64,000 bases of DNA from an uncultured Verrucomicrobiota bacterium (GCA_937996795.1 CALKUH010000029.1:6366-70365); one strand, 5' to 3'. Shown: positions 10,824-63,300, counted from the first letter of the stretch. The notes: generated from the letters alone by a model not told the origin. Numbers and translations: made by a program.

Positions 10824-10957
10824 GTGTATGTGTCACTCCCTTCTCAGGTGCGGGATTCCAACCAACTCAAAGGGGCAGGAGGGTAGGTGGGCAACCGTCC
10901 GGTGTCAAACCCAACGACCGCGTTTGCAAGGAAGACGTCACACGCGGGCGGATGCGT

Positions 10958-15087: not shown

Positions 15088-15094
15088 TATCTCC

Positions 15095-15625
15095 ATGGTG
15101 TTGAAACCACAAGATGTTCTGGTTGTGCTTAAGTTGGTGGCGTCGGGGGGATTGAACTTTACGTTCGCACAGCTGGGTCAGCAGATTGGGATGAGTGCCT
15201 CGGAGTCGCATCAGGCCTTTCATCGGGCGCGCCGCGCGGGGCTCGTTCAGCCCGTGTTTAATCAGCCGGTTAAGGGCGCCGTTGCGGAGCTGTTGATTCA
15301 TGGGCTCAAGTACGTCTTTCCCGTGCATCCCGGTGGGCGGACCCGTGGGATGCTCACGGGAGTTGCCGCGCCACCCTTGAGCGCATCGTTCAACGTGGGG
15401 ACTGCCGACCGGGATGTATTTGTCTGGCCCGACCCTGAAGGGAGCCATGCGGGCCTCGAAATTAGACCGCTCTGTCGTTCTGTTCCCGTCGCAGCCAGGC
15501 AGGATGCCCGGCTGTACGAGTGGCTGGTTGTCGCCGATGTGCTGCGCGGCGCGGGACGCGCCCGTGAACGAGAGCTCGCGGAGGAATGGGTTCGCGGGAG
15601 ATTGGAGAACGATGCGAGCCGTTGA
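15095..15625 (+). CDS. winged-helix DNA-binding protein, AbiEi-like putative antitoxin/regulator
   Basis: The N-terminal FTFAQLGQQIGMSASESHQAFHRARRAGLV looks like a wHTH. The gene overlaps the downstream nucleotidyltransferase gene by 14 nt. The locus has lower G+C (33/60 in line 15121). Confidence 0.5.
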   Translation: MVLKPQDVLVVLKLVASGGLNFTFAQLGQQIGMSASESHQAFHRARRAGLVQPVFNQPVKGAVAELLIHGLKYVFPVHPGGRTRGMLTGVAAPPLSASFNVGTADRDVFVWPDPEGSHAGLEIRPLCRSVPVAARQDARLYEWLVVADVLRGAGRARERELAEEWVRGRLENDASR

Positions 15626-16331: not shown

Positions 16332-16397
16332 GTTTCGCGGCGAAAGGGAGGGTTGTGAATTGCGCGGTGGGTTGAACTGATTTGGGAGAGGATTGAA

Positions 16398-17090
16398 TTG
16401 ATCAGCGCCGTACTCAACTGGCTGTTGCGTCCGTTCCGGAAAGCGCCGGCGCCTCGGCTGAATTCGTTTTTGGCGAAGGTGTCGGGGGTGGTGCATGTGG
16501 GGGCGAATGTGGGGCAGGAGCGGAATCGGTATCGGGCGGCGGGGCTGAAGGTGCTTTGGGTGGAGCCGATTCCGGAGGTGTTCGCGCGGCTTGCGGAGAA
16601 TCTACGGGGCTATGAGGGACAGGCGGCGGTGCAGGCGCTGGTCACGGATGTGGATGACAGGGAGTATGCGTTCCACATCGCCAGCAACGAGGGCGTGTCG
16701 TCGTCCATCCTCGAGCTGGCGCAGCACAAGGACATCTGGCCGGAGATCGACTTCACCTCGACGATTCGCCTCACGAGCGTGACGCTGGCGACGCTGTTCG
16801 CGCGGGAGGGTCTGAATCCCCGAGACTATCAGGCGCTGATCCTCGACACGCAGGGCTCGGAACTGCTCGTCCTGCGCGGCAGCGTCCCGCTGCTGCATTA
16901 CTTCGCCTACATCAAGGTCGAGGCGTCCGACTTCGAAGCCTACAAAGGATGCTGCACTGTCGCGGACATCGACGCCTTCATGCGGGAACACGGCTTCCGC
17001 GAAATCGCCCGCACCCCCTTCGCCACGCGCGCGGCGGGTGGAAGCTGTTTCGATTTGGTCTACCAGCGGATCGCCGCGGCGCAGGCCTGA
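16398..17090 (+). CDS. FkbM-family methyltransferase
   Basis: VVHVGANVGQERNRYRAAGLKVLWVEPIPEVFARL and LILDTQGSELLVLRG match the FkbM layout. The start codon is TTG. Confidence 0.7.
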   Translation: MISAVLNWLLRPFRKAPAPRLNSFLAKVSGVVHVGANVGQERNRYRAAGLKVLWVEPIPEVFARLAENLRGYEGQAAVQALVTDVDDREYAFHIASNEGVSSSILELAQHKDIWPEIDFTSTIRLTSVTLATLFAREGLNPRDYQALILDTQGSELLVLRGSVPLLHYFAYIKVEASDFEAYKGCCTVADIDAFMREHGFREIARTPFATRAAGGSCFDLVYQRIAAAQA

Positions 17091-47359: not shown

Positions 47360-48937
47360 CTAATAGACTGACTGCGCCGAGGTTTGGGCGCCGAATGCGC
47401 CGGTCATTCCAAAACGAAGCGGGGACATGTCGTTCACGGGATGCAGATGGACTTCGATTTGCTTCCGGGCAAAGTGCGTGAGCGCCTCCCCAAGTGCCGG
47501 CGTCTCCGGCTCACGGAGAAAGATGATCGCCTGTTCGCGCTCGGGATCGATTTTGCGAAGGACATCCTCCAGCGCATCTCCGACCAGCGGGATGCCTGCG
47601 TGCCCTGGAAGGCGTGTCAGGCTGAGGTTCTGTTGCAGCGAGGCCTTAAGGTTCACGGCGTAGGAGCCAACGTGAAGGGGTGTGTTCGTCAATAGCGCGA
47701 TATGCTCAATCGTTACGCCGCCGGTTTGCGCGCGCAATTCACGGATCAGCGGGATCATCCGCGACTTGGCCTCCTCGACCGGAATCGTGTAGAGCTGATC
47801 GGCGGAAAACTCGAGGTAAACCGGCTTTTTCCGGGTGCGTCCGGTCCACGCTTCTTCCGCGAACCCGTCCCATGCCGGTTTGGATTCGCCCTTCGGGTCG
47901 AACAACGCAAAGGCCTTCCACATGCCCTCGCCACACCACTCGGGACTCCAGTAATACACCGAGGCGATGTCGGGATGCGCATCGCAGAAGGCGAGAAAAT
48001 CGGCGATCCATCGTTTCTGTCCGTCCGGTGTCAGTGGATAGCCCGGCACGTCGTACTTCCAGCGCGAGAACTGGCCGGAAAATTCGCGCGTGCTCGGATA
48101 CGCTGTTTCGGGAATCGAAATGGGCCGGTTGATGGCGCGGGCCAGTCGCGTGACGGTTTCACCGAAGAGCGCCATTTCGAGCGAGCCGCCGATGTTGGAG
48201 GAGGGAAAATACGAAAGGCCTGCGTAGTCCACCTGGATGCCTTGTTCAATCATGAAGCGGAAGAACGCAACGCAGAATTCCGTGTCCCACCAGTGCGCGA
48301 TGTGCAGCATAAATTTCGCGTCGGGGTCTGATTCGAGCACGCCGGCCTGGCTTGCGCGGATCAGTTCGGCGGTTCGCGGCCACAGCCGGCGGCTCAGGGC
48401 CTCCGGATTCTTTTTTGCGCCCTTGCGTGGGTACTCACCGCAGATGCCGTAATCAATTTCGTTGCCGATTTCATAGAGATGGTTGCGCAAGCCCTCCTTT
48501 CGGAAGTGCGCCACGATGTCGCGCGAGTAGATGCGAACGGCCTCGACGCGCTGTTCGAAGGTGAGATCCTTCCACGCCGTCGGCACCGGCTGTTTCATCA
48601 TGTCCGCCCAATCCTCGCTGAGGAAGATGACCAGGTAGGGATTCATCCCCGCCGCGAGCGCGCGCCTTGCGACTTCCGTGGCGTAGTGTTTCCCGTTCGG
48701 GCCTTCGTCCTTCGTCCAGAGGCGAACGCGGAAATCCGTCACCCCTTTTTGCGCCATGCCCTTGAAGAGATCTTCCGCACGCCCATCCCAGGTCCACACG
48801 ATGCCGTTCGTTTCCATGCCGAGCGAATAATTGGCATCCACGCCCACGATCAGCGGCGGTTTTTCGGACGGCGCTCCCGCGAACGCCGAAAATACCGCAC
48901 CCACAACGCCCACCGCCCAGCACGTTCGTAACTTCAT
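47360..48937 (-). CDS. secreted glycoside hydrolase, GH53 (endo-beta-1,4-galactanase)-like, with a C-terminal domain of unknown function
   Basis: Signal peptide present. IVGVDANYSLGMETNGIVWTWDGRAEDLFKGMAQKGVTDFRVRLWT and YEIGNEIDYG resemble the GH53 (beta/alpha)8 layout. The last roughly 170 aa are unassigned. Confidence 0.45.
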   Translation of the reverse strand: MKLRTCWAVGVVGAVFSAFAGAPSEKPPLIVGVDANYSLGMETNGIVWTWDGRAEDLFKGMAQKGVTDFRVRLWTKDEGPNGKHYATEVARRALAAGMNPYLVIFLSEDWADMMKQPVPTAWKDLTFEQRVEAVRIYSRDIVAHFRKEGLRNHLYEIGNEIDYGICGEYPRKGAKKNPEALSRRLWPRTAELIRASQAGVLESDPDAKFMLHIAHWWDTEFCVAFFRFMIEQGIQVDYAGLSYFPSSNIGGSLEMALFGETVTRLARAINRPISIPETAYPSTREFSGQFSRWKYDVPGYPLTPDGQKRWIADFLAFCDAHPDIASVYYWSPEWCGEGMWKAFALFDPKGESKPAWDGFAEEAWTGRTRKKPVYLEFSADQLYTIPVEEAKSRMIPLIRELRAQTGGVTIEHIALLTNTPLHVGSYAVNLKASLQQNLSLTRLPGHAGIPLVGDALEDVLRKIDPEREQAIIFLREPETPALGEALTHFARKQIEVHLHPVNDMSPLRFGMTGAFGAQTSAQSVY

Positions 48938-49141
48938 GGATACCTCCCCGGTCCACGCGCGACGCAATATCATGAGAATAGAGTTAGCCGCCGGGACCCG
49001 GGGAATCCAATCAGTTTTTTGTTAGGCGCGGTGGTCGGGGGGACCACCCGCTTGTCAGGCGGCCCCGCGCGTTTTGCCGGATGTCCGCGTGTTGCCGCGG
49101 CCTTTGGCGGGCGGGGATTTCCGCGTGGTCGTTTTATACGC

Positions 49142-52042: not shown

Positions 52043-54678
52043 TGAAACGGTTCCTCAAGGTCCTGCTCCTCCTGCTTCCCGTGCTTGCCGCGGCGGCGCT
52101 GTGGCTGCTGCGCAGCGAGTCGGGACAGGCGCAGCTGGAGCGCTGGCTGCGCCCGCGCCTGCCCGGGGAGGTCCGCATCTCCGGGCTGGGCGGCGCGCTT
52201 CCGTTCCGCGGCCATCTGGATGTGATCGAGCTTCGCGACGAGCGCGGGGTGTGGTGCGTCGCGCAGGATGTGCAGTGGACGCTACAGCCGCGCAGCCTCT
52301 TGCGCCGTGAACTTGTCCTGCGCAGCGCTTCGGGCGCGCGCGTGGACCTACTGCGCCTGCCCGCGGGCGACGGGGCGCGCCCGGACGTGACGCCGCGAGC
52401 CGCGTCGCGCTGGTCGTTCTGGGTCCAGTCCGCGCGCGTCGACGATCTGGTGGTGGACGCCTCCATTCTCGGCGAGCGGTTGTCGGTCCAACTGGAGACC
52501 GCGCTGCGCGGCGATGCGCGCGCGTGGACCGCCGCCGCCTCGGCGTCCACCACCTGGCGCGACGAGGCGTTGCTGCTCGTGGGGTCCGCACGCGCCGCCC
52601 CCACCGGGTCCACCTTTGAAATCCGGCGGCTCGCCGGCGATGGATTCGAAGCGCAGGCCCAGGGCGGGTGGGCGCCGGAACGCCGCATCGAAGTGACCGG
52701 CGCCTTCACGAACGCGCCGCTGCTCGCGCGGCTGGCGCGTCTTGAACACAGTGGCGCAGGCCGGTTCAACGGCGCGCTGGTGTGGCGCGGGGATGGACCG
52801 AGCGCGGGGCTGAAGGCGTCGGTCTCGGATGCGCGGGGCTTCGGCATCGAACTCCAACACGGATGGGGGTCCGCCGTGTGGACGCCGAACGGCTGGCAGA
52901 CGACCGTGGTCGAAGCGGACGGCCGCTGGCGCGGCGAACCGTGGCGGCTGGCGCAGCCGGTGGAACTGTCGGCAGGTGCGGGCGGCCTCCGCTGGAACGC
53001 GCCCGCGTTCGCGTGGGCGGGCCTCGCGGCGGAAAGCCGGGGCGTGTGGTCGACGGCGCGTGTCGATGCCGTGGTGCGCCTGCCCGCGGTGGACCTCGGC
53101 GCGTCGCCGGTGTCGAATCGCCTGCGCGCCGGCATCGCGCGCGCCGAACTGCGCGTGTCCGGCACGCCGGATCAGCCGCACTGGCTGCTGGAAGCGGAGG
53201 CGGATGGCGTGGCGCCGCGCGTCGACTCCACGTTCCAATTGAACCCCGCGCAGGTGCGCCTGCGCGCGGAAGCCGTCGACGGCGAGGCGCGCGTCGCCGG
53301 GCGGGTGGAGGGATGGACGCGCGAGCCGATCCGCCTTCAGGCCTCGATGCCGCTCCATGCGCCGCTGGACGGGCGTCCGGTTTCCATCGCGCCCACGGGC
53401 GCCGTCGCGGGCGCGCTGGCCTTTGAGGTGGACCTCGCCCAGGCGGGCCGCTTTGCCGATCTTCGCGGCGCGAGCCTTGAAGGCCGGGTCGCGTGCGACC
53501 TCACGGTCGGCGGGACGTGGTCCTCGCCCGCAGTAAACGGACGCCTCACGCTGGAACGTGGCCGCGCCGAGTTCCCGGATAGCGGCACCGTGTTGCAACA
53601 CATCGAGATCGACCTGCGGGCGGATCGCGATCAGCTCGTGATCGCGCGCGCGGAGGCGGACGATGGCGCGGGCGGTCGCATCGCGCTGGACGGCGCCCTC
53701 CGATTTCTTCCCGCGGAGGGCTTCCCGCTGGAGGCCGGCCTGCGGCTGCATCGCGCCGCCCTGTGGCGGCAGGATGGAACGCAGATGCGGCTCGACGGAC
53801 GCGTGGCCGTGCGCGGTCCCGTCACCCGCCCGGTCGTGACGGGGCGGCTGGATCTGGTGGACGCCGAACTCCGCCTGCGTCCCACGCCGCCCACGCTTCG
53901 CCTCGTGCCCATCGACGACCCCGCGGGCCCGGTGGCCGCCCCCGCGACGACGTCGGCGTGGCTGCAGGCCATCGCGCTCGACGTGGCGGTGCGCGGGCGC
54001 GACATCCGCGTGGCGGGTCGCGGCCTGGACTCCGTGTGGCGCGCGGATCTGCGCGTGGACGGGGTCGCCGCGTCGCCCCGGCTGCGCGGGCCGCTGACCG
54101 TGGAGCGCGGCTATTTCCTCTTCATGGGCCGTCGTTTCACCCTCGACCGCGCCGTGCTTTCCTTCGACGGACGTACCCCGCCGGCGCCGGTGATTGACCT
54201 CGCCGCCTCCGCGCGCGCCGGGGACATGCAGGCGCGCCTCTACGCGGCGGGTCCGATCGACGCGCCCGCGCTGCACCTGGAGTCGGACCCCGCGTATCCG
54301 GCGGATGAGATCCTCGCGCGCCTGCTGTTCGGCCGCTCGACCGATGCCATCAGCCCGTTCCAGGCGGTGCGCCTGGCGCACGGGCTGAACGTCCTGCGCG
54401 GGCGCGGCCGTACGCTGGACGTGCTGGAGCGGGGACAATCGATCCTGCGCGTGGACCAGCTGGAACTCGTGCAGAGCGATGAGGCCGCGGAGATTTCCGC
54501 CATCAGCGTCGGCAAATACGTCGGGCGCAACATCTACGTCGAAGGCGAAAAAGGCCTCGGCGAATCCGCCGACCTCATCACCGTGGAAGTCGAACTCACG
54601 CCCTCCCTCATCCTCACCACCGAATCCAGCCCCCGCATCCGCGAAGGCATCGGCCTCAAATGGCGGCGGGATTATTAG
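52042..54678 (+). CDS. tamB: translocation and assembly module protein TamB (DUF490)
   Basis: An N-terminal anchor helix is followed by a long beta-rich body and a C-terminal DUF490-like segment: PRLRGPLTVERGYFLFMGRRFTLDRAVLSFDG...LESDPAYPADEILARLLFGR. Confidence 0.75.
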   Translation: MKRFLKVLLLLLPVLAAAALWLLRSESGQAQLERWLRPRLPGEVRISGLGGALPFRGHLDVIELRDERGVWCVAQDVQWTLQPRSLLRRELVLRSASGARVDLLRLPAGDGARPDVTPRAASRWSFWVQSARVDDLVVDASILGERLSVQLETALRGDARAWTAAASASTTWRDEALLLVGSARAAPTGSTFEIRRLAGDGFEAQAQGGWAPERRIEVTGAFTNAPLLARLARLEHSGAGRFNGALVWRGDGPSAGLKASVSDARGFGIELQHGWGSAVWTPNGWQTTVVEADGRWRGEPWRLAQPVELSAGAGGLRWNAPAFAWAGLAAESRGVWSTARVDAVVRLPAVDLGASPVSNRLRAGIARAELRVSGTPDQPHWLLEAEADGVAPRVDSTFQLNPAQVRLRAEAVDGEARVAGRVEGWTREPIRLQASMPLHAPLDGRPVSIAPTGAVAGALAFEVDLAQAGRFADLRGASLEGRVACDLTVGGTWSSPAVNGRLTLERGRAEFPDSGTVLQHIEIDLRADRDQLVIARAEADDGAGGRIALDGALRFLPAEGFPLEAGLRLHRAALWRQDGTQMRLDGRVAVRGPVTRPVVTGRLDLVDAELRLRPTPPTLRLVPIDDPAGPVAAPATTSAWLQAIALDVAVRGRDIRVAGRGLDSVWRADLRVDGVAASPRLRGPLTVERGYFLFMGRRFTLDRAVLSFDGRTPPAPVIDLAASARAGDMQARLYAAGPIDAPALHLESDPAYPADEILARLLFGRSTDAISPFQAVRLAHGLNVLRGRGRTLDVLERGQSILRVDQLELVQSDEAAEISAISVGKYVGRNIYVEGEKGLGESADLITVEVELTPSLILTTESSPRIREGIGLKWRRDY

Positions 54679-54686
54679 GGGGAGGA

Positions 54687-54716
54687 TTCACCACGGAGGC
54701 ACGAAGCGCGCGGAGG
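54687..54716. repeat. REP-type element (CACGGAG family), upstream flank of the low-GC cassette
   Basis: TTCACCACGGAGGCACGAAGCGCGCGGAGG. An inverted, longer copy lies at 58321-58366. Confidence 0.55.
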
Positions 54717-55082
54717 GGAGGGTGGTGAAGGAACAACAAGCGCCCTTAAAGCGGCGCCGACGGCGCGGCGCCCTCCAACATAATGCAGCCTGCGCTTGGA
54801 GGGCGGCAGGCCATTGCGCTGAGGTACGCTGGAGAACCCCGTGGCGCGACCCCATCGACAACTCCGGCACCCGCAAACGCCCCATTCCCCGCCGAAATTC
54901 GCATTGCATCGCCCCCGGAATATTCTTCACAGTCGCTCCGCCTAAGCGATGCTTCCTTGCATCTTGTCGTTTAAGATGATAGCAAAAAGCACTTTTACGT
55001 AACTCGATTCAAATCAGGGCGGCCTTTTCAGAACGGCGGGATAGTGGGAAACCGACTAATCACTTGTTCGGCGGAGCAAGCT

Positions 55083-55997
55083 ATGAGCCACATCATAACA
55101 CGCAAGATGATAACCACAAAGAGCGACGTCTTCGGCCGCAAGTGGTGGTATGCCTTTCGCGATCTACCAGAGATAGCCGACGAGGTTAAGGCAAAGCAGT
55201 ACGTCGATTCGCTATTCCAACAGTGCGGCGCAATTACGAAGTCATGGAATGCCGACGTGAACTCCGAATGGATTGTGCGCTGCTACCTCGCCGCACGTCT
55301 GATAATGGCGAGCACCCTATACATCAATAGTTATCGCCACTGCATGACGGTCAATCAACGAGTTCCCGCGACATTTCTTCAGTACTACGCCGTACTATTC
55401 GCCATGCGCGCCAGCGTCCTTACCTCGCCGATGCAATCATGGAGCAACGGCGAACTCGTCGGCATGACGCATAGCAAGGCGATCAACGTCAGTTGCGACA
55501 TTCTCAAATGCATCACATTATCTGACTACGCTGACACAATAAAGGGACAAATAGCCGAAATGAAAGGTAAGCGAGAATTGATATCGTACATCGCCCCGTC
55601 TCGGGGCGATGGAGATATTCTACTTCTCGACGATACTGGACTGATCGCGTTGTGCACGCGCTTTTCCGAGATGGCCCAACTTCAATCCGAGGTGATGGAG
55701 GCTTCTCTACACAAGAAGGCACCCGACAAGTCCACCCTTGTTTTCAAAGATGAATTCTTCAGACAAGCATGCTCGGCTGTGTGCGAGGAATGCGAATATC
55801 TCGATCACGAAGATGCATACCGCCTTGATTATCTGCGTCGAAAGCATCCATTGATGACCAATGTGTGTCACATCATTTCGGAGGGTCACTCGGAAGACTT
55901 CTTTGGTGCCTGGCTGCCAAAAGACGATGACGAAGTGAGGTCGGACGCGGTGTTCGATCCGGATAAGGAATGGGATGTCATATTCGATATTCCATGA
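55083..55997 (+). CDS. orphan 304-aa protein, predicted helical, possible UPF0332/HEPN-like core
   Basis: The ATG at 55083 lies 6 nt after GGAG. The ORF is clean, in about 50% GC DNA. I recognise no family. The segment QYYAVLFAMRASVL...GMTHSKAINV...KRELISY is weakly HEPN/UPF0332-like. Confidence 0.55.
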   Translation: MSHIITRKMITTKSDVFGRKWWYAFRDLPEIADEVKAKQYVDSLFQQCGAITKSWNADVNSEWIVRCYLAARLIMASTLYINSYRHCMTVNQRVPATFLQYYAVLFAMRASVLTSPMQSWSNGELVGMTHSKAINVSCDILKCITLSDYADTIKGQIAEMKGKRELISYIAPSRGDGDILLLDDTGLIALCTRFSEMAQLQSEVMEASLHKKAPDKSTLVFKDEFFRQACSAVCEECEYLDHEDAYRLDYLRRKHPLMTNVCHIISEGHSEDFFGAWLPKDDDEVRSDAVFDPDKEWDVIFDIP

Positions 55998-56079
55998 AGG
56001 AATCGCCTTCACCGTATTCCTCACCCGCGGCGGGTTCGGAATCCGGTGAGGCGTAACGTTAGCAGAGAAGAATGAAAGA

Positions 56080-56754
56080 ATGAAAAAGAGCGACAGCTTC
56101 ATATTGCTCACAGTCGTAGTCGGGGTTATACTCAACTTGGGTGCCGCCCATATCGACCGTCGATTCCCTCCCGTGTCCGCCTATGCGTCCACGCTTCTGG
56201 CGGCCGCGTTACTGCTCTATTTGTGTTATCGGGTTTTTGACGGGCTTCTGCATTATCTCCGCTTTGGCCGTTACGCAGTGCTAATCTTTTTCCTGAACAG
56301 CAAGAACCAACTACTCTTGATTCGCCATCCGTATCACAAATGTTACTTGCCGCCGGGCGGGCGTCTTTCCCAGTGGGAGCTTCCTCACGAAGCTGTTTCC
56401 AGGAAGCTAAAGGAAGAAGTCGGCGTTACGTCTTACGAACTTCATCCCACGTTTCATAATCCTCCTGTGGTGATAAGCGAAAAGGTCGAGGATGTTCCAC
56501 GTCCATACACGGTTCATATGGAGCACCGACGACAGCGGAACCTGATACGATTCCATTATGCCTTTGTATACGTGTGCCGCTTTAAGGGGAACGACGAAAC
56601 GCTTCCGCGTGTCGCGGACTACGAACCGCACTTCTTCGACCTCGAATCCATCTATAACATGCCACGTGGCACGATCCCATATGATGACATTATACGCCGC
56701 TACGAAGACATCCTAATACAGCTCGGAGTTCCACACTATGTCGACAAAGCATAA
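56080..56754 (+). CDS. membrane-anchored Nudix hydrolase (two N-terminal TM helices)
   Basis: The TM helices are ILLTVVVGVILNLGAA and TLLAAALLLYLCY. The Nudix box GGRLSQWELPHEAVSRKLKEEVGV aligns with MutT GGKIEMGETPEQAVVRELQEEVGI, with RK in place of RE. Confidence 0.75.
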   Translation: MKKSDSFILLTVVVGVILNLGAAHIDRRFPPVSAYASTLLAAALLLYLCYRVFDGLLHYLRFGRYAVLIFFLNSKNQLLLIRHPYHKCYLPPGGRLSQWELPHEAVSRKLKEEVGVTSYELHPTFHNPPVVISEKVEDVPRPYTVHMEHRRQRNLIRFHYAFVYVCRFKGNDETLPRVADYEPHFFDLESIYNMPRGTIPYDDIIRRYEDILIQLGVPHYVDKA

Positions 56755-57682
56755 GCTGCTGATCGTCGGCTGCGGCAAGCACCTCCTGAACACGATGAGC
56801 CATCATCTCCTTCGCTTGAAGTCTGCGGCGTTGGTTTGTTGCGTTGACCCTATTACACATGCGCGGCACGCGGCACGCGACCTGTTACGATGCGGCTCTT
56901 CATGTGCCGCCATCGAAGAAGTAGACTTCTCCACCGTCTCGGCTGCCATCGTTGCAACCCCACCATACGCGTCGTTTGCAATCACAAATCATCTAATCGA
57001 GAGACATATTCCCGTTCTTGTTGAGAAACCTCCAGCCATGAATAGTGCCGATATCGCGACCTTGGACGAGAAGGCGCAAAGGCTTGGTGTTCGCGTTCAG
57101 GTAGGTTTTAATTTCAGGTTCGCGGCAGCCTATAGAGCACTGCGAAACGTTTGTGAGAAGCATCCGCCGGCACTCTTGTCATGCCACTTCGTTAGCCGTC
57201 ATCCCGCTTCTTCCGAGTGGGGCGTTAGCGATCCACGCGAGGCTTGGCTGCGCCACAACGGAGTTCACCTCCTCGATATGGTCCGATCCGTGAGTGGCGC
57301 ACTGGTGTTAACCAATGCTGAGCGCACCAGTAGTGGAGAAGGCAGGCACTTGGCATGCGTGGCTCTGCACTCCGCATCGACTATCATTCAGGTCATCGTC
57401 GGGAATATGACATCCGGGTTCTCACTTGGAATGACCGCAATTCTAGAAGATGGAAGGACCTTTCAAATGAGAGGTCTTGGCTCATGCGTAGAAGTTGCAT
57501 ATCCTGACGGCCCTGTTGTCTCGACACTTTATGCGACCAAGAGTATGGATGATGGATGGGATCGGTTAGGCTACGGAGCAGAACTCGATGCGTTTCTTAG
57601 CGATGACCCGAATATTGAACGGCCGAATCTTGGAGATGCGCTAAACGCGTCGCTCATGTGTGACGCGCTTTGCAGGGAGTAA
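56738..57682 (+). CDS. Gfo/Idh/MocA-family NAD(P)-dependent oxidoreductase
   Basis: It overlaps the upstream gene by 17 nt. It has the Rossmann start KLLIVGCGKH, AAIVATPPYASFAITNHLIERHIPVLVEKP (the EKP motif) and VQVGFNFRF. Confidence 0.75.
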   Translation: MSTKHKLLIVGCGKHLLNTMSHHLLRLKSAALVCCVDPITHARHAARDLLRCGSSCAAIEEVDFSTVSAAIVATPPYASFAITNHLIERHIPVLVEKPPAMNSADIATLDEKAQRLGVRVQVGFNFRFAAAYRALRNVCEKHPPALLSCHFVSRHPASSEWGVSDPREAWLRHNGVHLLDMVRSVSGALVLTNAERTSSGEGRHLACVALHSASTIIQVIVGNMTSGFSLGMTAILEDGRTFQMRGLGSCVEVAYPDGPVVSTLYATKSMDDGWDRLGYGAELDAFLSDDPNIERPNLGDALNASLMCDALCRE

Positions 57683-57686
57683 TCAC

Positions 57687-58262
57687 ATGACAAATGACAA
57701 TTGCGCGCTTCTTAAGGCAAGCGCCCTCAAACTGCTCGACGTATATGCGAAGACTTATCATAATGAGTCGGAGCAAATCGAGAGATGCCGCTTGCTGCTG
57801 CAATCACTTCCTGACCCATTCTCGGATAGGGAGGCTCGCGGGCACATTACCGCTTCGGCCGTAGTTGTCGCCGGGCCTCCATATTGCGCACTTCTCATCT
57901 TGCACGAGAAGTTGAATCGCTGGTTTCAGCCGGGTGGCCATGTTGAGACAGCGATTGACGGTTCAATCGTGGATGCCGCCCTGCGCGAGTGTTTGGAGGA
58001 GACAGGAGAGCACGCGCACACTGCTGGCACTGGTCCCATTCTTATCGACATTGATATCCACCGTATTCCTCAATCCAGCAAAATGCCATCGCATGAGCAT
58101 TATGACATGCGCATACTGTTCCGCTTGGATCCCAAGCCGCTTCGGTCCGCAGCAATGAAGTGGGTGCCGCTATCAGAACTTGCCAAAGATTCTGATATTA
58201 CGCTTTCGCGCTTTTCACAGAAGGCAATAGATCTGCTAACCAGAGGGTCCTGCTTATCGTGA
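57687..58262 (+). CDS. Nudix hydrolase with N-terminal helical extension
   Basis: It starts 4 nt after the upstream stop. GHITASAVVV...LLILHEKLNRWFQPGGHVETAIDGSIVDAALRECLEETGE is a Nudix box. DIDIHRIP...HEHYDMRILF follows. Confidence 0.8.
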   Translation: MTNDNCALLKASALKLLDVYAKTYHNESEQIERCRLLLQSLPDPFSDREARGHITASAVVVAGPPYCALLILHEKLNRWFQPGGHVETAIDGSIVDAALRECLEETGEHAHTAGTGPILIDIDIHRIPQSSKMPSHEHYDMRILFRLDPKPLRSAAMKWVPLSELAKDSDITLSRFSQKAIDLLTRGSCLS

Positions 58263-58320
58263 CCCCGAAGCGGGTTCACGAACGCATACCCTAGTCGTTA
58301 GGGGGGATTTGCCGCAGCTG

Positions 58321-58366
58321 CACGGAGCGCGCTTCCTCTCCGTGCCCTCCGTGTCTCCGTAGTGAA
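58321..58366. repeat. REP-type element (CACGGAG family), downstream flank of the low-GC cassette, inverted relative to 54687-54716
   Basis: Its reverse complement, TTCACTACGGAGACACGGAGGGCACGGAGAGGAAGCGCGCTCCGTG, shares TTCAC[C/T]ACGGAG[G/A]CACG and GAAGCGCGC with the upstream copy. Confidence 0.55.
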
Positions 58367-58381
58367 CTCTTCCCCCCTCGA

Positions 58382-58966
58382 TCAGAACTGCGTGAAGCGG
58401 AGGAAGATGGAGACGACGGGGGCGCTCAGGTCGCTGCTGGAAAGGTTGTCGTAATCGTTGTCCGACACGTCGGCGAAGCGGTAGGCGGCGGCGGCGCCGA
58501 ATTCGGTGGATTCGGTGATGTTCAGGATTACGCTGAGCTGCGGCTCCAGCGCGAAGAATTCGATGTCCTCGTCGGGGACGCCGCCCTTGCTGTTCAGCGA
58601 GATCTGGCCGCCGCCGATCAGGGCGCCGAGGGACGCGTGGACCAGCTTGTTGGCGAAGAAGCGATACTCCAGCGCCAGCCCGCCATACACGATGTCGAAA
58701 TCATCCGGGTTGTGGTAGCCGTTGGGGGCCACGTCCACTTCGCTCAGCAGCGTGTGCACGCCGAGGCCGATGGCGAGTTTGTCGTTGAGGATGCCGCCGA
58801 TGCGCAGGCCGCCGAACGCGCCGTCATCCTCGCCGACTTCGGAGTAGCTCACGTCGACCCGCGTGAACAGGTTCCAGACGTCATCTTCGCTGAATACCGT
58901 TTCATCGGCGGCGAAGGCGGGGAGGGCGAGCGAGCAACCGAGCAGGAACGCAAGTATGTGGCGCAT
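58382..58966 (-). CDS. small outer-membrane beta-barrel protein (porin/OmpA-beta-barrel-like family)
   Basis: Signal peptide MRHILAFLLGCSLALPAFA. The sequence has an alternating amphipathic beta pattern and ends with the C-terminal motif ...SIFLRFTQF. Confidence 0.6.
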   Translation of the reverse strand: MRHILAFLLGCSLALPAFAADETVFSEDDVWNLFTRVDVSYSEVGEDDGAFGGLRIGGILNDKLAIGLGVHTLLSEVDVAPNGYHNPDDFDIVYGGLALEYRFFANKLVHASLGALIGGGQISLNSKGGVPDEDIEFFALEPQLSVILNITESTEFGAAAAYRFADVSDNDYDNLSSSDLSAPVVSIFLRFTQF

Positions 58967-59035
58967 GGCGATCTCCTTGACTGGTGCAAGCATACTCCAG
59001 CGGGCGCGGTTGAAAAGGGGAAAGCGGCGCGGCGC

Positions 59036-59422
59036 TCAGGGCGCCGGCGGGATCGGCGGGGGCGTCCGCCACGCGCGCAGGCTGCGGTACCACGCGTACC
59101 AGGTGTCGTAGAGGCTGGCGACGTACACGCCGAGGAAGAACCCGCAGGCCTTGAGCATCGGGATCAGCGAGGCGCGCCATTCGTCGGGGCTGATCTCGCG
59201 GGACCACGCCTCGCGCGCGAGGCGAAACAGGTCCATGCCGTGGCGCGCGAGCATCGCGCCGAGGACGAAGGTCGCGATGAGCGCCGCGCCGCCATAGAGC
59301 ATCGCGGGGCCGAGGCGGCGCTGTTTGTACTGGCCGAGTCCGGGGAAGATGACGGCGGAGCAAATGACGGGATCGAGGCTGGGCTCGGATTCCGGACGCT
59401 TGGCTGGCGAGACGAAAAACAT
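59036..59422 (-). CDS. small membrane protein of unknown function
   Basis: Two to three hydrophobic helices are present, with a PGLGQY motif near the first helix and a Pro-rich C-terminus. Confidence 0.4.
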   Translation of the reverse strand: MFFVSPAKRPESEPSLDPVICSAVIFPGLGQYKQRRLGPAMLYGGAALIATFVLGAMLARHGMDLFRLAREAWSREISPDEWRASLIPMLKACGFFLGVYVASLYDTWYAWYRSLRAWRTPPPIPPAP

Positions 59423-60935: not shown

Positions 60936-62756
60936 ATGAGTTTCCGATCTTCCACGTCCGACGCGTTCCGCAAGTACCAGGAAAAGAAGTCCGCGCCCAA
61001 GGCGCCGCCGCCGCGGCCGAAGCACAGCGCGTTGAGTGTGGGCGTCGGGACCGCGCGGGAGGCGAAGGATTTCCACTGGGTCGACGCGAACATCCCGTGC
61101 CAGGCGGCCTGCCCGGCGAAGACGGACATTCCGGGCTATCTCGACGCGATTTCCAGGGGCGATTTCGCCGGGGCCTATCTCATCAACCTGCGCGACAACG
61201 TGTTTCCCGCCGTGCTCGGCCGCGTCTGCACGCGTCCGTGCGAGCCGGCATGCCGGCATGGGTGGGAGGGCTTGGGCGAGCCGGTGGCGATCTGTTTTTC
61301 GAAGCGGTCGGCGTCCGATTTCCAGCAGCGCGGCGCGCCGGTTGTCCTGGAAAAATGGTTCGAGCCGTCGGGCAAGTCCGTCGCGATCGTCGGCGCGGGC
61401 GCCGCGGGCCTCGCGACCGCGCGGGAGCTTGCCCTGTGGGGCCATGCGGTGACGGTGTATGAGAAGGAGGCGCTGCCCGGCGGCATGATGGTGCAGGGGA
61501 TTCCCGAATTCCGCCTGCCGCGCGACATCGTCGCGCTGGAGATCGAGCAGATCCGCCGCCTGGGCGTGGAGATCCGCTGCGGCGTCGAGGTGGGGCGCGC
61601 GGTGGCGCTGGACGAAATCCGCGCGCAGCACGACGCGGTCGTGCTCGCCGCGGGCACCGCGTTGCCGGCGTGGCCGGACCTGCCGGGCCGCGACGCGGCG
61701 GGCGTCGAGCATGGATTCAGTTTCCTGCGCGAGGTCAACGCGGGCCGGCGCGCGGACATCGGTTCGCGCGTGGTGGTCATCGGCGGCGGCTTCACCGCGG
61801 TGGACTGCGCGCGCACGGCGCGGCGGCTGGGCGCGACGAGTGTCGGCATGTACTACCGGCGCACCGAGGCGGAAATGTACATCACGCCCGGTGAGGTGGA
61901 GGAGATGGCGCACGAAGGCATCGCCTTCCAGACGCGCGTGAATCCCGTCGCGATTCTCGCGGAGAACGGGCGCGTGACGGGCGTGCGCTTTGTGCGGACG
62001 GAGGCGGGCGCGCCGGGCCCGGACGGACGCCGCGCGTTCCGCGTGATTCCCGGCAGCGACCTCGACGTGCCGGCCGACGCGGTGCTGCTGGCGACCGGCC
62101 AGCGCGCGGACCGCGCGTGGATGCCGGAGGCGTGGGTCGCGGCCATCCACCGCTCAACGGGCGGCATGGTGCAGGTCGAGCCCGGGGTGTTCGTGGTCGG
62201 CGATTTCGCCGCGGGCGCGCGCTCGCTGATTGACGCGATCGCCGACGGGCGCAACGGGGCGCGCGCGGTGGATGCGCACCTGGTCGGGCGCAACCGCTTC
62301 GAGGACGTCGTGCGGATCGAGCCCGCGGAGGAAACCGGGCGCACGCGCGAGATGGACGCGTGGCCGCGGAACCCGATGCCGGTGCTGCCGGTTGACCGGC
62401 GCGACCGGGCGGCGGAGGTCGAAACGGGCTTCGATGCGGAGGCCGCAAAAAAAGAAGCGAAACGTTGTTATTTGTGCCACTTCAAATACGAAATCGACAA
62501 TGAGCTGTGCATCTATTGCGATCGATGCCTGAAGGTGAAGCCGGTTGAACACTGCATCGTAAAGGTCAGTTCGCTGATCTACGACGGGCAGGGCCGCATC
62601 ACCGGGTACAACCGGTCGACGGGAGCGAAGGACTACAACTTGCTCTACATCGACCAGTCACAATGCATCCGCTGCGGGGCGTGCAAGGACGTGTGCCCCG
62701 TGGAGTGCATCGATTTGCAGAAGGTGTCGCGGCAGACGTGTGCGATCCAAACCTAA
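60936..62756 (+). CDS. GltD-like NAD(P)H-dependent FAD oxidoreductase with C-terminal 4Fe-4S ferredoxin domain
   Basis: IPCQAACPAKTDIPGYL...VCTRPCEPACRHGW is the GltD N-terminal Fe-S region. VAIVGAGAAGLA and VVVIGGGFTAVDCA are the dinucleotide folds. CIYCDRC and CIRCGACKDVCP are ferredoxin motifs. Confidence 0.8.
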   Translation: MSFRSSTSDAFRKYQEKKSAPKAPPPRPKHSALSVGVGTAREAKDFHWVDANIPCQAACPAKTDIPGYLDAISRGDFAGAYLINLRDNVFPAVLGRVCTRPCEPACRHGWEGLGEPVAICFSKRSASDFQQRGAPVVLEKWFEPSGKSVAIVGAGAAGLATARELALWGHAVTVYEKEALPGGMMVQGIPEFRLPRDIVALEIEQIRRLGVEIRCGVEVGRAVALDEIRAQHDAVVLAAGTALPAWPDLPGRDAAGVEHGFSFLREVNAGRRADIGSRVVVIGGGFTAVDCARTARRLGATSVGMYYRRTEAEMYITPGEVEEMAHEGIAFQTRVNPVAILAENGRVTGVRFVRTEAGAPGPDGRRAFRVIPGSDLDVPADAVLLATGQRADRAWMPEAWVAAIHRSTGGMVQVEPGVFVVGDFAAGARSLIDAIADGRNGARAVDAHLVGRNRFEDVVRIEPAEETGRTREMDAWPRNPMPVLPVDRRDRAAEVETGFDAEAAKKEAKRCYLCHFKYEIDNELCIYCDRCLKVKPVEHCIVKVSSLIYDGQGRITGYNRSTGAKDYNLLYIDQSQCIRCGACKDVCPVECIDLQKVSRQTCAIQT

Positions 62757-62769
62757 CGGGAGCGAAAAG

Positions 62770-63300
62770 ATGAAACTGTTTGCGCTGGTGATGCTGGTGA
62801 CCGCGATGTCGATGACCCTGTCCGCCCACGCGTTGCAGGCCGGGGATGCCGCGCCGGATTTCAAGGCGATGTCCACGGCGGGCGCGGAGGTCAGCCTCGC
62901 GGACTTCAAGGGGTCGTGGCTCGTTCTCTATTTTTATCCCAAATCGTTTACGCCCGGCTGCACGGCGCAGGGATGCTCGCTGCGCGACGGGTTTACGCCG
63001 ATCAAGGAAGCCGGGGCCACGATCCTCGGGGCCAGCGTGGACAAGCTGGAGACGCAGCAGAAATTCAAAGCCGAGCACCGCCTGCCGTTCGAGTTGCTGG
63101 CGGACGCCGATGCCGTCGTGGCCAAGGCGTATGGCGTGAGCACGCTGATGGGGAAGATGGCGCGCCGCGTCACTTTCATCATCAGCCCCGAAGGCCGCAT
63201 CGCGCGGGTCATGGAAGACATCAAGACCGGTTCGCACGACCAGCAGGTGCTGTCCGCGCTCAAGGAATTGCAGGCGGCGGCCGCGCCCGCGACGCCGTGA
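62770..63300 (+). CDS. bcp: secreted peroxiredoxin (Bcp type)
   Basis: Signal peptide present. GDAAPDFKAMSTAGAEVSLADFKGSWLVLYFYPKSFTPGCTAQGC follows. Confidence 0.85.
   Translation: MKLFALVMLVTAMSMTLSAHALQAGDAAPDFKAMSTAGAEVSLADFKGSWLVLYFYPKSFTPGCTAQGCSLRDGFTPIKEAGATILGASVDKLETQQKFKAEHRLPFELLADADAVVAKAYGVSTLMGKMARRVTFIISPEGRIARVMEDIKTGSHDQQVLSALKELQAAAAPATP

What the first reader, a model, noticed from the sequence alone, without database searches (positions are those of the whole stretch)
54950..58300. Compositionally foreign four-gene cassette: orphan helical protein, membrane Nudix, Gfo/Idh/MocA oxidoreductase and a second Nudix
Hand counts of 60-nt lines give 30/60 G+C at 55081-55140 and 29/60 at 57001-57060. 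The same count gives 45/60 at 54001-54060 inside tamB, so this segment is clearly foreign to the host composition. It carries four same-strand genes. A (55083-55997) belongs to no family I recognise. B (56080-56754) has two TM helices and a Nudix box. C (56738-57682) is a Gfo/Idh/MocA oxidoreductase with the EKP motif. D (57687-58262) is a second Nudix. B and C overlap by 17 nt and C and D are 4 nt apart, so at least B-C-D form one operon. No glycosyltransferase, sugar-nucleotide synthase, transporter or regulator accompanies them. The neighbours (tamAB, an OMP, miaB) are unrelated housekeeping genes. Two Nudix pyrophosphohydrolases plus an NAD(P) oxidoreductase imply processing of a nucleotide-linked small molecule, such as an NDP-sugar, an ADP-ribose/NAD derivative or a signalling nucleotide. 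Pairing with an orphan protein on a horizontally acquired cassette fits the pattern of nucleotide-centred conflict or defence modules. I do not recognise it as any named defence or biosynthetic system.
Basis: partly seen in the sequence, partly recalled or inferred. Interest (0 to 1): 0.75.

Follow-up and report, generated by a model that had tools for sequence, protein, structure and literature searches.

The report
Rare Nudix–dehydrogenase–Nudix defence-island module
A 3.6-kb piece of foreign DNA in a Kiritimatiellae-like genome carries two separate mobile units: a lone gene with a protein fold not seen before, and a rare three-gene enzyme set that usually sits among anti-phage genes elsewhere and is a credible but untested candidate for a new bacterial immune system.

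Summary
Bases ~54.7-58.3 kb are the strongest compositional outlier in the window (GC3 0.55-0.60 vs 0.86-0.91). They carry four same-strand genes with the stated domains and lie between tamAB and an OMP/miaB block. The "four-gene cassette" is really two units.

A is a solitary gene from a small unannotated family. Its model is confident (pLDDT 92.5) but has no structural neighbour. It recurs alone in prophage, plasmid and conjugative-transposon accessory regions, never next to B-C-D.

B-C-D is a conserved, self-contained triad. It occurs in six independent loci with the same order, overlapping genes and congruent C and D trees. It matches no PADLOC model and no paper found. In three of four loci with long flanks it abuts Lamassu, PDC-S19/HerA or SIR2+STAND/subtilase genes.

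B's Nudix box is degenerate. Across the family this domain sits behind interchangeable N-terminal domains (2TM, TIR, PNP-like, DNPH1-like, protease), a sensor-effector layout. C and D are an older enzyme couple whose sister lineage sits in amino-sugar-type biosynthetic clusters.

Best reading: a new candidate defence module acting on a nucleotide-linked sugar. Function is untested.

The parts
54678..54719 (.). Left arm of a 42-nt imperfect inverted repeat that brackets the island. It starts at the last base of the tamB stop codon.
   Evidence: Local alignment with the reverse complement of 58334-58376 gives 35/43 matches and score 44, against shuffles of 16.3 +/- 2.6 (max 27). The repeat is unique in the window. 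Joined to the right arm it folds into a ~40-bp hairpin, -72.9 kcal/mol.
54720..55082 (+). Non-coding leader of the insert. GC is still ~0.6 and falls to ~0.5 by about 54950.
   Evidence: Sequence and composition. No Rfam family. No convincing sigma-70 promoter.
55083..55997 (+). Gene A: a 304-aa solitary, island-hopping gene of an unannotated family with a confident all-helical model that has no structural neighbour. It is an independent unit, not part of B-C-D.
   Evidence: 53 homologue clusters with no Pfam. 24 invariant, mostly polar or aromatic residues. pLDDT 92.5, pTM 0.92. Best Foldseek E is 0.56 in PDB and 0.59 in BFVD. Contexts. No recurrent partner.
56080..56754 (+). Gene B: 224 aa, an N-terminal two-helix transmembrane hairpin (residues ~3-60) plus a degenerate Nudix domain (~61-216). 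It is the signature gene of the triad and the proposed sensor-effector.
   Evidence: Pfam NUDIX 9e-11. Hydrophobic windows and the model (helices 3-28 and 30-60, pLDDT 84.7). Box G94-x5-E100-x7-R108-K109-L-K-E112-E113-x-G. Family of 38 clusters at E<=1e-30 among 1.84e9 representatives. N-terminal domain swapping.
56738..57682 (+). Gene C: a 314-aa Gfo/Idh/MocA NAD(P)-dependent dehydrogenase with its catalytic motifs intact.
   Evidence: Pfam 6.5e-13. VGCGKH, VEKP, GFNFR and NG[VI]H..D are invariant in six loci. The profile matches 3m2t end-to-end at 5.4e-39, then sugar/cyclitol dehydrogenases.
57687..58262 (+). Gene D: a 191-aa Nudix hydrolase with an intact RExxEETG box and an N-terminal helical extension.
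   Evidence: Pfam 1.2e-6. 32 invariant columns, including R100 E101 E104 E105, D121 D123 H125 and H136 H138 D140 R142. Profile to 3fcm at 5.5e-19.
58334..58376 (.). Right arm of the inverted repeat. It ends 6 nt before the stop codon of the convergent OMP gene (58382-58993, minus strand).

Best explanation
The low-GC segment (about 54720-58333) is a horizontally acquired insert that split a palindromic terminator between the convergent tamB and OMP genes. It carries two unrelated pieces of 'defence-hotspot' cargo.

Unit 1 is gene A, a solitary gene of unknown activity.

Unit 2 is the B-C-D triad, a self-contained three-gene conflict module, most likely anti-phage. It is built from an old enzyme couple plus a sensor-effector.
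- C is an NAD(P)-dependent sugar-type dehydrogenase. D is a canonical Nudix pyrophosphohydrolase. Together they act on one nucleotide-linked sugar-like metabolite: C oxidises a hydroxyl and D cuts the pyrophosphate link.
- B is a paralogous Nudix domain that has lost the key catalytic Glu. It binds that metabolite, or its product, instead of turning it over efficiently. Through its N-terminal two-helix membrane hairpin it damages or gates the membrane to stop an infected cell. In relatives the N-terminal domain is instead TIR, PNP-like, DNPH1-like or a protease.

Shown:
- The insert is foreign, and the inverted repeat brackets it.
- The triad is conserved and its genes have co-diverged.
- It neighbours known defence genes.
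- B's box is degenerate and its N-terminal domain is swapped across the family.
- C and D keep their catalytic motifs.
- The C/D sister lineage lies in amino-sugar-type clusters.

Inferred:
- Defence function.
- Ligand sensing by B.
- The identity of the metabolite.
- Which of C and D makes the ligand and which removes it.

Confidence by level: a conserved conflict-related module, ~0.6. The specific sensor-effector mechanism, ~0.3.
For: Foreign insert:
- GC3 is 0.55-0.60 vs 0.86-0.91, and the island is the top tetranucleotide outlier.
- The 42-nt inverted repeat refolds into a -72.9 kcal/mol hairpin exactly between the two stop codons.
- The Kiritimatiellae relative keeps DctP-tamA-tamB but has no A-D.

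Triad conservation:
- Six independent loci (window, L008/9, L021/22, L023, L032, L033) show invariant B-C-D order, with gene gaps from -17 to +13 nt and host GC from 0.38 to 0.63.
- Pairwise identities are only B 36-62%, C 24-38%, D 33-46%, and no fourth gene is shared.
- The C and D trees are congruent.

Defence context:
- L023: LmuA 7e-68 and LmuB 4e-186 upstream.
- L021: PDC-S19 2e-94 directly downstream, plus HerA, an integrase and a D12 MTase.
- L008: ThsA-like SIR2 plus nSTAND1 upstream and an IetS-like subtilase 5e-48 downstream.

B as sensor-effector:
- The 'RE' Glu is never Glu in the family, and hhalign aligns B's R108-K109 to D's invariant R100-E101.
- The same Nudix domain follows 2TM, a DNPH1-like domain (12/12 weak PDB hits, best 0.02), PNP_UDP_1 (8.5e-11), Trypsin_2 (1e-6) or TIR_2 (to 6e-15).
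- In the TIR-fused forms only one box Glu is kept, while family-specific E148, R153, H159, Y160 and D203 persist.
- Non-catalytic Nudix sensors of ADP-ribose are known in NrtR-type regulators (PMC9503650).

C and D competent: motifs are invariant.

Substrate class:
- C's characterised structural relatives are all sugar/cyclitol secondary-alcohol dehydrogenases.
- The sister C/D pairs sit with DegT aminotransferases, HAD phosphatases, GTs and MFS exporters. That matches the RifL/K/M and NtdC/A/B logic (PMC8788734).
Against: - No experiment bears on the function.
- In the window itself the flanks are housekeeping genes. Two triad loci (L032, L033) are short contigs with no recognisable defence neighbours.
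- Only four loci have long flanks, so the defence-island association rests on three lineages.
- The neighbourhoods of the TIR-, PNP- and protease-fused B relatives could not be retrieved. It is therefore unknown whether they keep C and D, which the model predicts.
- Triad-type B proteins still keep E100, E112 and E113, so they may be active hydrolases. Modified Nudix boxes can be active (UDP-X diphosphatase, PMC3655063).
- Some of B's 'family-specific' residues (the HY motif) are shared with D, 3f6a and 1jrk, so they mark the subclade rather than proving a sensor pocket.
- The module has no obvious signal synthase of a known kind.
- The 2TM segment could be a simple membrane anchor.
Confidence: 0.4

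Rival explanations
1. Purely enzymatic conflict module. B, C and D are all catalysts that together destroy or convert one nucleotide-linked metabolite. Examples would be draining an NDP-sugar or ADP-ribose/NAD-derived compound that a phage needs, or producing a reactive keto-sugar nucleotide as a chemical defence. The 2TM segment only anchors B at the membrane.
For: Triad-type B keeps three of the four box acidic residues, and modified Nudix boxes can be active. TIR, PNP-like and DNPH1-like partners are all nucleotide N-glycosidases (from established knowledge), so a Nudix could process their ribose-phosphate products. C and D are intact enzymes. The defence-island context is as.
Against: The trypsin-like fusion, and 2TM being the commonest partner, do not fit substrate channelling. 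The TIR-fused relatives have lost nearly the whole catalytic box. It is unclear why two Nudix paralogues would be kept for one pathway in every locus.
Confidence: 0.25
2. Not an immune system. The triad is a stripped-down or specialised sugar-nucleotide/cyclitol metabolic module (salvage, detoxification or small-molecule biosynthesis) that is merely mobile and lands in the same variable regions as defence genes.
For: C/D-like pairs without B are the sister lineage and lie in biosynthetic-looking clusters on Pantoea and Rhizobium plasmids. One C clade nested among triad C proteins pairs with a GT2-like protein. In the window the neighbours are housekeeping genes.
Against: None of the six full triads has an aminotransferase, glycosyltransferase, transporter or regulator. 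Three independent lineages abut PADLOC-recognised systems. B's relatives carry TIR, PNP and protease domains typical of immune effectors. The family is extremely rare and patchy: 38 clusters, with no hit to the B-derived search patterns in 185,579 species genomes.
Confidence: 0.18
3. Counter-defence or mobile-element-benefit module. The enzymes degrade a host immune signal or NAD-derived messenger to protect the mobile element that carries them.
For: Nudix enzymes of phages are proposed to destroy ADP-ribose-derived signals (PMC9503650). The closest B homologue (L017-20) sits on an element with ArdC, Imm_superinfect and HipA genes.
Against: B was not found on any IMG/VR viral contig or PLSDB plasmid. 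Triads lie beside, not opposite to, defence systems. A membrane-anchored degenerate Nudix is an odd signal scavenger.
Confidence: 0.1
4. One reading: A-B-C-D is one four-gene cassette whose orphan protein A works with the three enzymes.
For: The genes are on the same strand with the same foreign composition. A and B are 82 nt apart within one insert bracketed by one inverted repeat.
Against: About 15 A loci examined carry no B, C or D, and five other triad lineages carry no A. A has no recurrent partner at all.
Confidence: 0.04

Closest known systems
Effector proteins of nucleotide-signalling defence systems (Pycsar, CBASS, Thoeris, type III CRISPR accessory effectors). These have a constant ligand-sensor domain joined to interchangeable killing domains such as 2TM, TIR, nucleosidase or protease (domain repertoire cited from established knowledge).
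   Same: B's family shows the same architecture: one conserved C-terminal domain behind 2TM, TIR_2, PNP_UDP_1, DNPH1-like or Trypsin_2 N-termini. It also shares the defence-island setting.
   Different: The constant domain is Nudix-derived, not SAVED, CARF, cNMP-binding, SLOG or STING. The module contains no cyclase, CD-NTase or TIR signal synthase. The partner genes are a dehydrogenase and a Nudix hydrolase. There is no PADLOC hit.
NrtR-type regulators, where a catalytically inactive Nudix domain senses ADP-ribose (PMC9503650, section 3.8)
   Same: A Nudix fold with a degraded catalytic box is used as a small-molecule sensor in conflict-related loci. B has lost the 'RE' Glu, and its TIR-fused relatives have lost most of the box.
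   Different: NrtR couples the sensor to a DNA-binding HTH, whereas B couples it to a membrane hairpin or enzymatic effector domains. No sequence-level membership was shown. The ligand is unknown.
Kanosamine-type keto/amino-sugar pathways: RifL-RifK-RifM on UDP-glucose and NtdC/KabC-NtdA-NtdB on glucose-6-P (PMC8788734)
   Same: An NAD(P) sugar dehydrogenase is coupled to a phosphohydrolase acting on the same sugar-nucleotide or sugar-phosphate. The sister lineage of the C/D pair sits with DegT aminotransferases and HAD phosphatases on Pantoea and Rhizobium plasmids.
   Different: All six triads lack the aminotransferase, and also lack GTs and exporters. The phosphohydrolase is a Nudix, not a HAD. 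The third gene is the degenerate membrane Nudix B. C scores far below the NCBIfam cut-offs for every named dehydrogenase.
Uncharacterised structural-genomics proteins 3m2t (Gfo/Idh/MocA, for C) and 3fcm, 3f6a and 1jrk (Nudix, for D and B)
   Same: These are the nearest solved relatives by sequence profile and by fold.
   Different: None has a known substrate, so they provide no function.

Membership tests
Nudix hydrolase superfamily (gene B) | Nudix alpha/beta/alpha fold | tested here: met
   Pfam PF00293 at 9.3e-11, above the cut-off. The AF2 model (pLDDT 84.7) gives Foldseek hits to 3f6a at 7e-9, 1k2e, DR1025 and RppH.
Nudix hydrolase superfamily (gene B) | Canonical Nudix box GX5EX7REUXEEXGU with the R-E pair | tested here: not met
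   B reads G94-x5-E100-x7-R108-K109-L-K-E112-E113-V-G. The Glu position is K, R, V, L or F in all 21 family members, and the Arg position is variable. hhalign places B's R108-K109 on D's invariant R100-E101. TIR-fused relatives retain only E113.
Nudix hydrolase superfamily (gene D) | Nudix fold and the REUXEEXG catalytic helix | tested here: met
   Pfam at 1.2e-6, above the cut-off. R100, E101, E104, E105 and T106 are invariant in six loci. G84 is also invariant, but the G-to-R spacer is about 2 residues longer than canonical. Profile to 3fcm at 5.5e-19.
Gfo/Idh/MocA oxidoreductases (gene C) | N-terminal Rossmann domain with the dinucleotide loop and EKP motif, plus a C-terminal substrate domain with the catalytic His/Asp | tested here: met
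   PF01408 at 6.5e-13. VGCGKH, VEKP, GFNFR and NG[VI]H..D are invariant. Pfam does not call the C-terminal domain, but the profile aligns over residues 5-293 to 3m2t at 5.4e-39.
Any named dehydrogenase equivalog (IolG, UDP-GlcNAc 3-dehydrogenase, levoglucosan dehydrogenase and others) for gene C | Score above the curated NCBIfam cut-off | tested here: not met
   The best hit is TIGR04380 iolG at 41.8 bits against a cut-off of 355. All others are lower.
Known or candidate anti-phage systems in PADLOC-DB v2 | Profile match of the component proteins | tested here: not met
   A, C and D have no hit. B has only a 29-residue match to PDC-S07 at E=0.0015, confined to the Nudix box.
Defence-island cargo (guilt by association) | Recurrent placement next to recognised defence systems in unrelated genomes | tested here: met
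   Lamassu LmuA/LmuB (L023), PDC-S19 plus HerA (L021), and SIR2 plus nSTAND1 plus subtilase (L008). This was not seen in the window, L032 or L033. The sample is small.
Signalling-type defence systems (CBASS, Pycsar, Thoeris, type III CRISPR) | A dedicated signal synthase (CD-NTase, cyclase, TIR or Cas10) | tested here: not met
   The triad has only Nudix, Gfo/Idh/MocA and Nudix, and no fourth gene is conserved.
Signalling-type defence systems (CBASS, Pycsar, Thoeris, type III CRISPR) | An effector made of a constant sensor domain plus interchangeable toxic domains | tested here: met
   B-type Nudix domain with 2TM, DNPH1-like, PNP_UDP_1, Trypsin_2 or TIR_2 N-termini.
Signalling-type defence systems (CBASS, Pycsar, Thoeris, type III CRISPR) | Ligand binding by the sensor domain that activates the effector | not testable with these tools
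   This needs binding and activity assays.
Kanosamine-like amino-sugar pathway | Sugar 3-dehydrogenase plus PLP aminotransferase plus phosphohydrolase in one operon | tested here: not met
   No aminotransferase is present in any of the six triads. One is present only in the B-less sister clusters of Pantoea and Rhizobium.
Classical integrase/tRNA-associated genomic island | Integrase or transposase gene, a tRNA target and direct repeats | tested here: not met
   There is no tRNA in the window and no recombinase domain in the island. The flanks are an inverted repeat, not a direct repeat.
Any known protein family or fold (gene A) | A sequence-profile or structural match | tested here: not met
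   No hit in Pfam, NCBIfam, PADLOC or PHROGs. Foldseek best E is 0.56 (PDB, TM ~0.2) and 0.59 (BFVD), despite pLDDT 92.5.

The most novel reading that the evidence does not exclude
B-C-D is a new class of small-molecule-signalling immune system. The messenger is not a cyclic nucleotide or ADP-ribose isomer. It is an oxidised nucleotide-linked sugar, set by a dehydrogenase (C) and cleared by a Nudix hydrolase (D). It is read by a Nudix-derived pseudoenzyme domain (B) that gates interchangeable effectors: a membrane hairpin here, and TIR, PNP-like nucleosidase, DNPH1-like N-glycosidase or protease in relatives. Gene A would separately be a single-gene defence or counter-defence factor with a new fold.
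Probability: 0.2. Interest if true: 0.85.

Novelty: new variant of a known kind. Interest (0 to 1): 0.62.

Why it matters
If the triad protects against phages, it would add an immune module built from enzyme families not previously implicated together in defence. These are a sugar-type NAD(P) dehydrogenase, a Nudix hydrolase, and a Nudix-derived putative sensor.

It would show a biosynthetic enzyme couple, whose relatives sit in amino-sugar clusters, being recruited into immunity. It would also give a concrete, testable example of a Nudix pseudoenzyme acting as the ligand-reading part of effectors that carry 2TM, TIR, nucleosidase or protease domains. That would point to a new class of immune metabolite.

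Independently, gene A defines a compact, confidently modelled fold with no structural relative. It recurs in prophage and plasmid hotspots, which makes it a cheap single-gene candidate for phage-challenge screens.

Even if the module is not defensive, the split-hairpin insertion site is a clean example of cargo landing in the apex of a terminator palindrome with no recombinase left behind.

Tried and rejected
- **A linked to B-C-D:** rejected by the neighbourhoods of about 15 A loci and 5 other triad lineages.
- **A as HEPN or AbiV-like:** the only hint is a Foldseek hit to AbiV at rank 47 (probability 0.23), and reading the family consensus by eye shows no R-x4-6-H motif. Dropped.
- **Border motif as a genome-wide REP element:** the 12-mer core is not enriched (11 matches vs 15.5 expected), and the long arms occur only at the two borders.
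- **Inverted repeats as a property of the module:** no other triad locus has flanking repeats above shuffles.
- **Non-homologous displacement of the oxidoreductase (MDR in L014, GMC in L015) and of the phosphate enzyme (HD, kinase):** downgraded. The L014 kinase passes the curated Gmk cut-off and is probably housekeeping, and each context was seen only once.
- **L017 radical SAM as a viperin:** no PADLOC or NCBIfam hit.
- **Second Nudix of the Pantoea cluster as B-like:** hhalign probability 0.2%.
- **Clean empty-site comparison:** the only species-level relative (a Kiritimatiellae MAG with TamB 50% identical) loses synteny right after tamB.
- **Searches for B that found nothing:** 185,579 species genomes, IMG/VR and PLSDB.
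- **Other negative results:** no Rfam family, tRNA, or promoter/terminator signal above background in the island.
- **Literature:** searches for Nudix + MocA + phage defence and related term sets returned no description of the module.
- **GDP-mannose mannosyl hydrolase as a model for B's altered box:** I could not retrieve the signature from the held papers, so no claim is made.

Full report

GC falls from 0.72-0.76 inside tamB to 0.50-0.55 between ~54.8 and ~58.3 kb, then recovers. Third-codon-position GC is 0.55-0.60 for the four island genes. It is 0.86-0.91 for every flanking gene. The island is also the strongest tetranucleotide outlier of the whole 64-kb window, at 0.046 against a median of 0.015.

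The ATG starts at 55083, 56738 and 57687 match the N-termini of homologues. B and C overlap by 17 nt, and C and D are 4 nt apart.

The domain calls hold:
- A hits nothing in Pfam, NCBIfam, PADLOC or PHROGs.
- B is a Nudix protein (9e-11) with two N-terminal hydrophobic helices.
- C is Gfo/Idh/MocA (6.5e-13) with VEKP.
- D is Nudix (1.2e-6).

The neighbours are Omp85/POTRA (TamA-like), TamB and a MiaB-type enzyme. There is no tRNA, integrase, GT, transporter or regulator.

The host is related to Kiritimatiellae. The only species-representative hit for its TamB is 50% identical, and that genome keeps DctP-tamA-tamB synteny but has no A-D.

**2. The insertion site.** A 42-nt imperfect inverted repeat brackets the island.
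- The left arm (54678-54719) starts at the last base of the tamB stop codon.
- The right arm (58334-58376) ends 6 nt before the stop of the convergent OMP gene.
- It shows 35/43 matches, score 44 against shuffles of 16.3 +/- 2.6 (max 27), and it is unique in the window.

Joined in silico, the arms form a ~40-bp hairpin of -72.9 kcal/mol exactly between the two stop codons. The simplest reading is that a palindromic, terminator-like hairpin between convergent genes was split at its apex by a 3.6-kb insert. The alternative is that the arms are the terminal inverted repeats of a non-autonomous element, and this is not excluded. No other triad locus has such repeats, so this is a feature of this insertion event and not of the module.

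**3. Gene A is a separate unit.**

A belongs to a small family (53 clusters, down to 30% identity) with no annotation. It has 24 invariant, mostly polar or aromatic residues. Its AlphaFold model is very confident (pLDDT 92.5, pTM 0.92). Even so, it has no structural neighbour in the PDB (best E 0.56, TM ~0.2) or in BFVD.

Its relatives sit:
- after a TIR gene in an AIPR/HNH island (L001);
- beside an integrase in Janthinobacterium (L002);
- between TraQ and ParB/ArdC in a Bacteroidota conjugative transposon (L006);
- on three plasmids next to a recombinase, TA pairs or an ABC-three-component system;
- on five IMG/VR contigs. One lies between the P2-type replication gene A and a SIR2 gene, an interval I recall as a known P2 defence hotspot. 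One lies between SMC/AAA ATPases, and one lies next to a WYL regulator.

None of these loci has B, C or D, and A has no recurrent partner. A is therefore solitary hotspot cargo of unknown activity. It could serve defence or counter-defence.

**4. B-C-D is a conserved, rare, self-contained triad.**

The nearest relatives of C are only 33-38% identical. One of them (L008/L009) lies in the same Nudix-Gfo-Nudix arrangement. There the flanking Nudix genes are true counterparts of B (62% over the Nudix domain) and D (37%), while B and D themselves are only distantly related.

Following B homologues gave further triads in L021/22, L023, L032 and L033. That makes six independent loci with these properties:
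- invariant B-C-D order;
- gaps of -17 to +13 nt;
- host GC from 0.38 to 0.63;
- pairwise identities of B 36-62%, C 24-38% and D 33-46%;
- no shared fourth gene.

Neighbour-joining trees of C and D have congruent topology, so the genes have co-diverged as a unit.

The B family is tiny. The word-indexed search found 20 clusters. An exhaustive HMMER scan of 1.84 billion representatives found 38 at E<=1e-30. Pattern-based scans with B-derived motifs found nothing in 185,579 species genomes or in IMG/VR, and tblastn found nothing in PLSDB.

**5. Genomic company.**
- In L023 the triad follows a Lamassu pair (LmuA 7e-68, LmuB 4e-186) and a UPF0489 gene.
- In L021 it is followed directly by PADLOC candidate PDC-S19 (2e-94). 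It lies between an integrase/excisionase pair and HerA plus D12-methylase genes.
- In L008 it follows a ThsA-like SIR2 plus an nSTAND1 NTPase and precedes an IetS-like subtilase (5e-48).

So three of the four loci with at least 10 kb of context are embedded in recognisable defence islands. The window, L032 and L033 show no such neighbours. None of the six triads is accompanied by an aminotransferase, glycosyltransferase, transporter or regulator. The triad proteins match no PADLOC model. Literature searches found no description of such a module.

**6. What the proteins say.**

*D* keeps an intact RExxEETG helix and a set of invariant His/Asp residues.

*C* keeps the dinucleotide loop, EKP, GFNFR and the NG[VI]H..D catalytic motif. 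After the uncharacterised 3m2t (5.4e-39), its characterised structural relatives are all sugar or cyclitol secondary-alcohol dehydrogenases (DgpA, inositol dehydrogenases, glucuronide 3-dehydrogenase).

*B* is different in two ways.
- Its box reads G-x5-E-x7-[variable]-[K/R]-L-x-E-E-x-G. The Glu of the 'RE' pair is never Glu in the family. hhalign puts B's R108-K109 on D's invariant R100-E101.
- B and D share the same nearest solved relatives (3fcm, 3f6a, 1jrk). They look like an intact and a degenerate pair from one Nudix subclade.

More telling, the B-type Nudix domain is a constant C-terminal module behind interchangeable N-termini:
- a 2TM hairpin in most members;
- a DNPH1/nucleoside-deoxyribosyltransferase-like domain in L008, L033 and P0085-87 (all 12 weak PDB hits go to that family, best E 0.02);
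- a PNP/UDP-phosphorylase domain (8.5e-11);
- a trypsin-like peptidase (1e-6);
- TIR in more distant relatives (to 6e-15).

In the TIR-fused forms only one box Glu survives, while E148, R153, H159, Y160 and D203 persist. This is the architecture of sensor-effector proteins in signalling-type defence systems (from established knowledge). A non-catalytic Nudix sensor has a precedent in ADP-ribose-sensing NrtR-type regulators (PMC9503650).

**7. Where C and D came from.**

D-like Nudix genes are fairly common as stand-alone genes. On a Pantoea ananatis plasmid a D-like gene (37%, 1e-34) overlaps a C-like gene (26%, 6e-19). These are followed by three aminotransferases, a monooxygenase, HAD phosphatases, MTA phosphorylase, an unrelated Nudix, an MFS exporter and GalE.

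On a Rhizobium plasmid the order is C-like, then DegT aminotransferase, then D-like. This set lies opposite three GTs, two MFS transporters and phosphatases.

In both trees these two pairs are the sister group of the triad proteins. One compact C clade nested among the triad C proteins pairs with a GT2-like protein instead.

This matches the dehydrogenase-transaminase-phosphohydrolase logic of kanosamine formation (RifL/K/M on UDP-glucose, NtdC/A/B on glucose-6-P; PMC8788734). The inference is that C oxidises a hydroxyl of a nucleotide-linked or phosphorylated sugar and D cleaves the pyrophosphate carrier. In the triad the transaminase is replaced by B.

**8. Mechanism and rivals.**

My preferred model is that the C/D couple sets the level of a sugar-nucleotide-derived metabolite. 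B's degenerate Nudix domain reads that level and triggers its membrane hairpin, giving an abortive-infection-type outcome. I put ~0.6 on 'conserved conflict module' and ~0.3 on this specific mechanism.

The main rival (0.25) is that all three are catalysts that deplete or convert a metabolite, with the hairpin acting as an anchor. Next is a non-immune metabolic module that simply travels with islands (0.18). After that is a counter-defence role (0.1). The four-gene-cassette reading is essentially excluded (0.04).

The weakest points are the small number of long-flank loci, the unknown neighbourhoods of the TIR-, PNP- and protease-fused B relatives, and the absence of any experiment.

**9. Verdict.**

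The finding is best described as two independent hotspot cargo units. One is an undescribed, rare three-gene candidate defence module with an unusual component set. The other is a solitary gene with a novel fold. This is a new variant of a known kind (defence-island multi-gene systems). Interest is moderate to high because the hypothesis is specific and cheap to test.

Noticed in passing
window 54678-54719 and 58334-58376: A 42-nt inverted repeat sits exactly at the stop codons of the convergent tamB and OMP genes. Joined, the arms form a ~40-bp, -72.9 kcal/mol hairpin. This suggests the 3.6-kb insert landed in the apex of a terminator palindrome and left no recombinase behind.
   Followed up: yes
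L017-L020 (about 5605-8657 in L017): The closest B homologue (P0076, 66%) lacks C and D. Instead it lies about 400 nt downstream of a different, full-length Gfo/Idh/MocA gene that overlaps a 311-aa radical SAM gene (not viperin-like by PADLOC). The element also carries HerA, Imm_superinfect, DndE, SMC, ArdC and HipA. It was seen on 24 contigs of one sample series.
   Followed up: partly
L010-L012 (e.g. L011 1329-5982): A compact clade of C-like dehydrogenases nested among triad C proteins forms a different conserved trio. It comprises a ~650-aa protein (weak MerR hit), a ~537-aa GT2_3-like protein and the dehydrogenase, with no B or D.
   Followed up: no
L037 = Pantoea ananatis plasmid NZ_CP020945.2, 9531-22829: A 14-gene same-strand cluster. 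In order: D-like Nudix, C-like Gfo, two DegT and one class I/II aminotransferase, FAD monooxygenase, two HAD enzymes, desaturase, MTA phosphorylase, SBP, a second unrelated Nudix, MFS and GalE. It looks like an uncharacterised amino-sugar or nucleoside-type natural-product cluster on an onion-pathogen plasmid.
   Followed up: partly
L021 2435-4897: An 820-aa protein with no Pfam, PADLOC, NCBIfam or PHROG hit overlaps the start of B by 4 nt in this triad locus only. It could be a lineage-specific fourth component.
   Followed up: no
P0085 residues 1-145 (also L008 and L033 B proteins): The DNPH1-like N-terminal domain matches four PHROG families of unknown function (best phrog_3634, 2.8e-25). 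The same domain is therefore common in phage proteins.
   Followed up: no
L027 about 4999-11013: An A homologue sits between a P2-type replication gene A (1.9e-101) and a SIR2_2 gene on an IMG/VR contig. From memory, this interval is a defence hotspot of P2-like prophages.
   Followed up: partly
L013/L014 (3177-6685 in L014) and L015 (9383-11686): More distant B homologues (47% and 40%) lack C and D. One lies between an HD phosphohydrolase and a guanylate kinase (which passes the Gmk cut-off and is probably housekeeping) plus a Zn-ADH. The other lies before a GMC-family oxidoreductase. Whether these oxidoreductase neighbours are functional substitutes for C is open.
   Followed up: partly
window 58382-58993 and 59036-59422 (minus strand): The two host genes right of the island have no significant Pfam match. 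One is a 203-aa putative OMP with a signal-peptide-like N-terminus. The other is a 128-aa membrane protein.
   Followed up: no
window 15001-17000, 48001-49000 and 62400-62800: There are milder GC dips (0.56-0.61 against a window mean of 0.66). I did not examine them.
   Followed up: no
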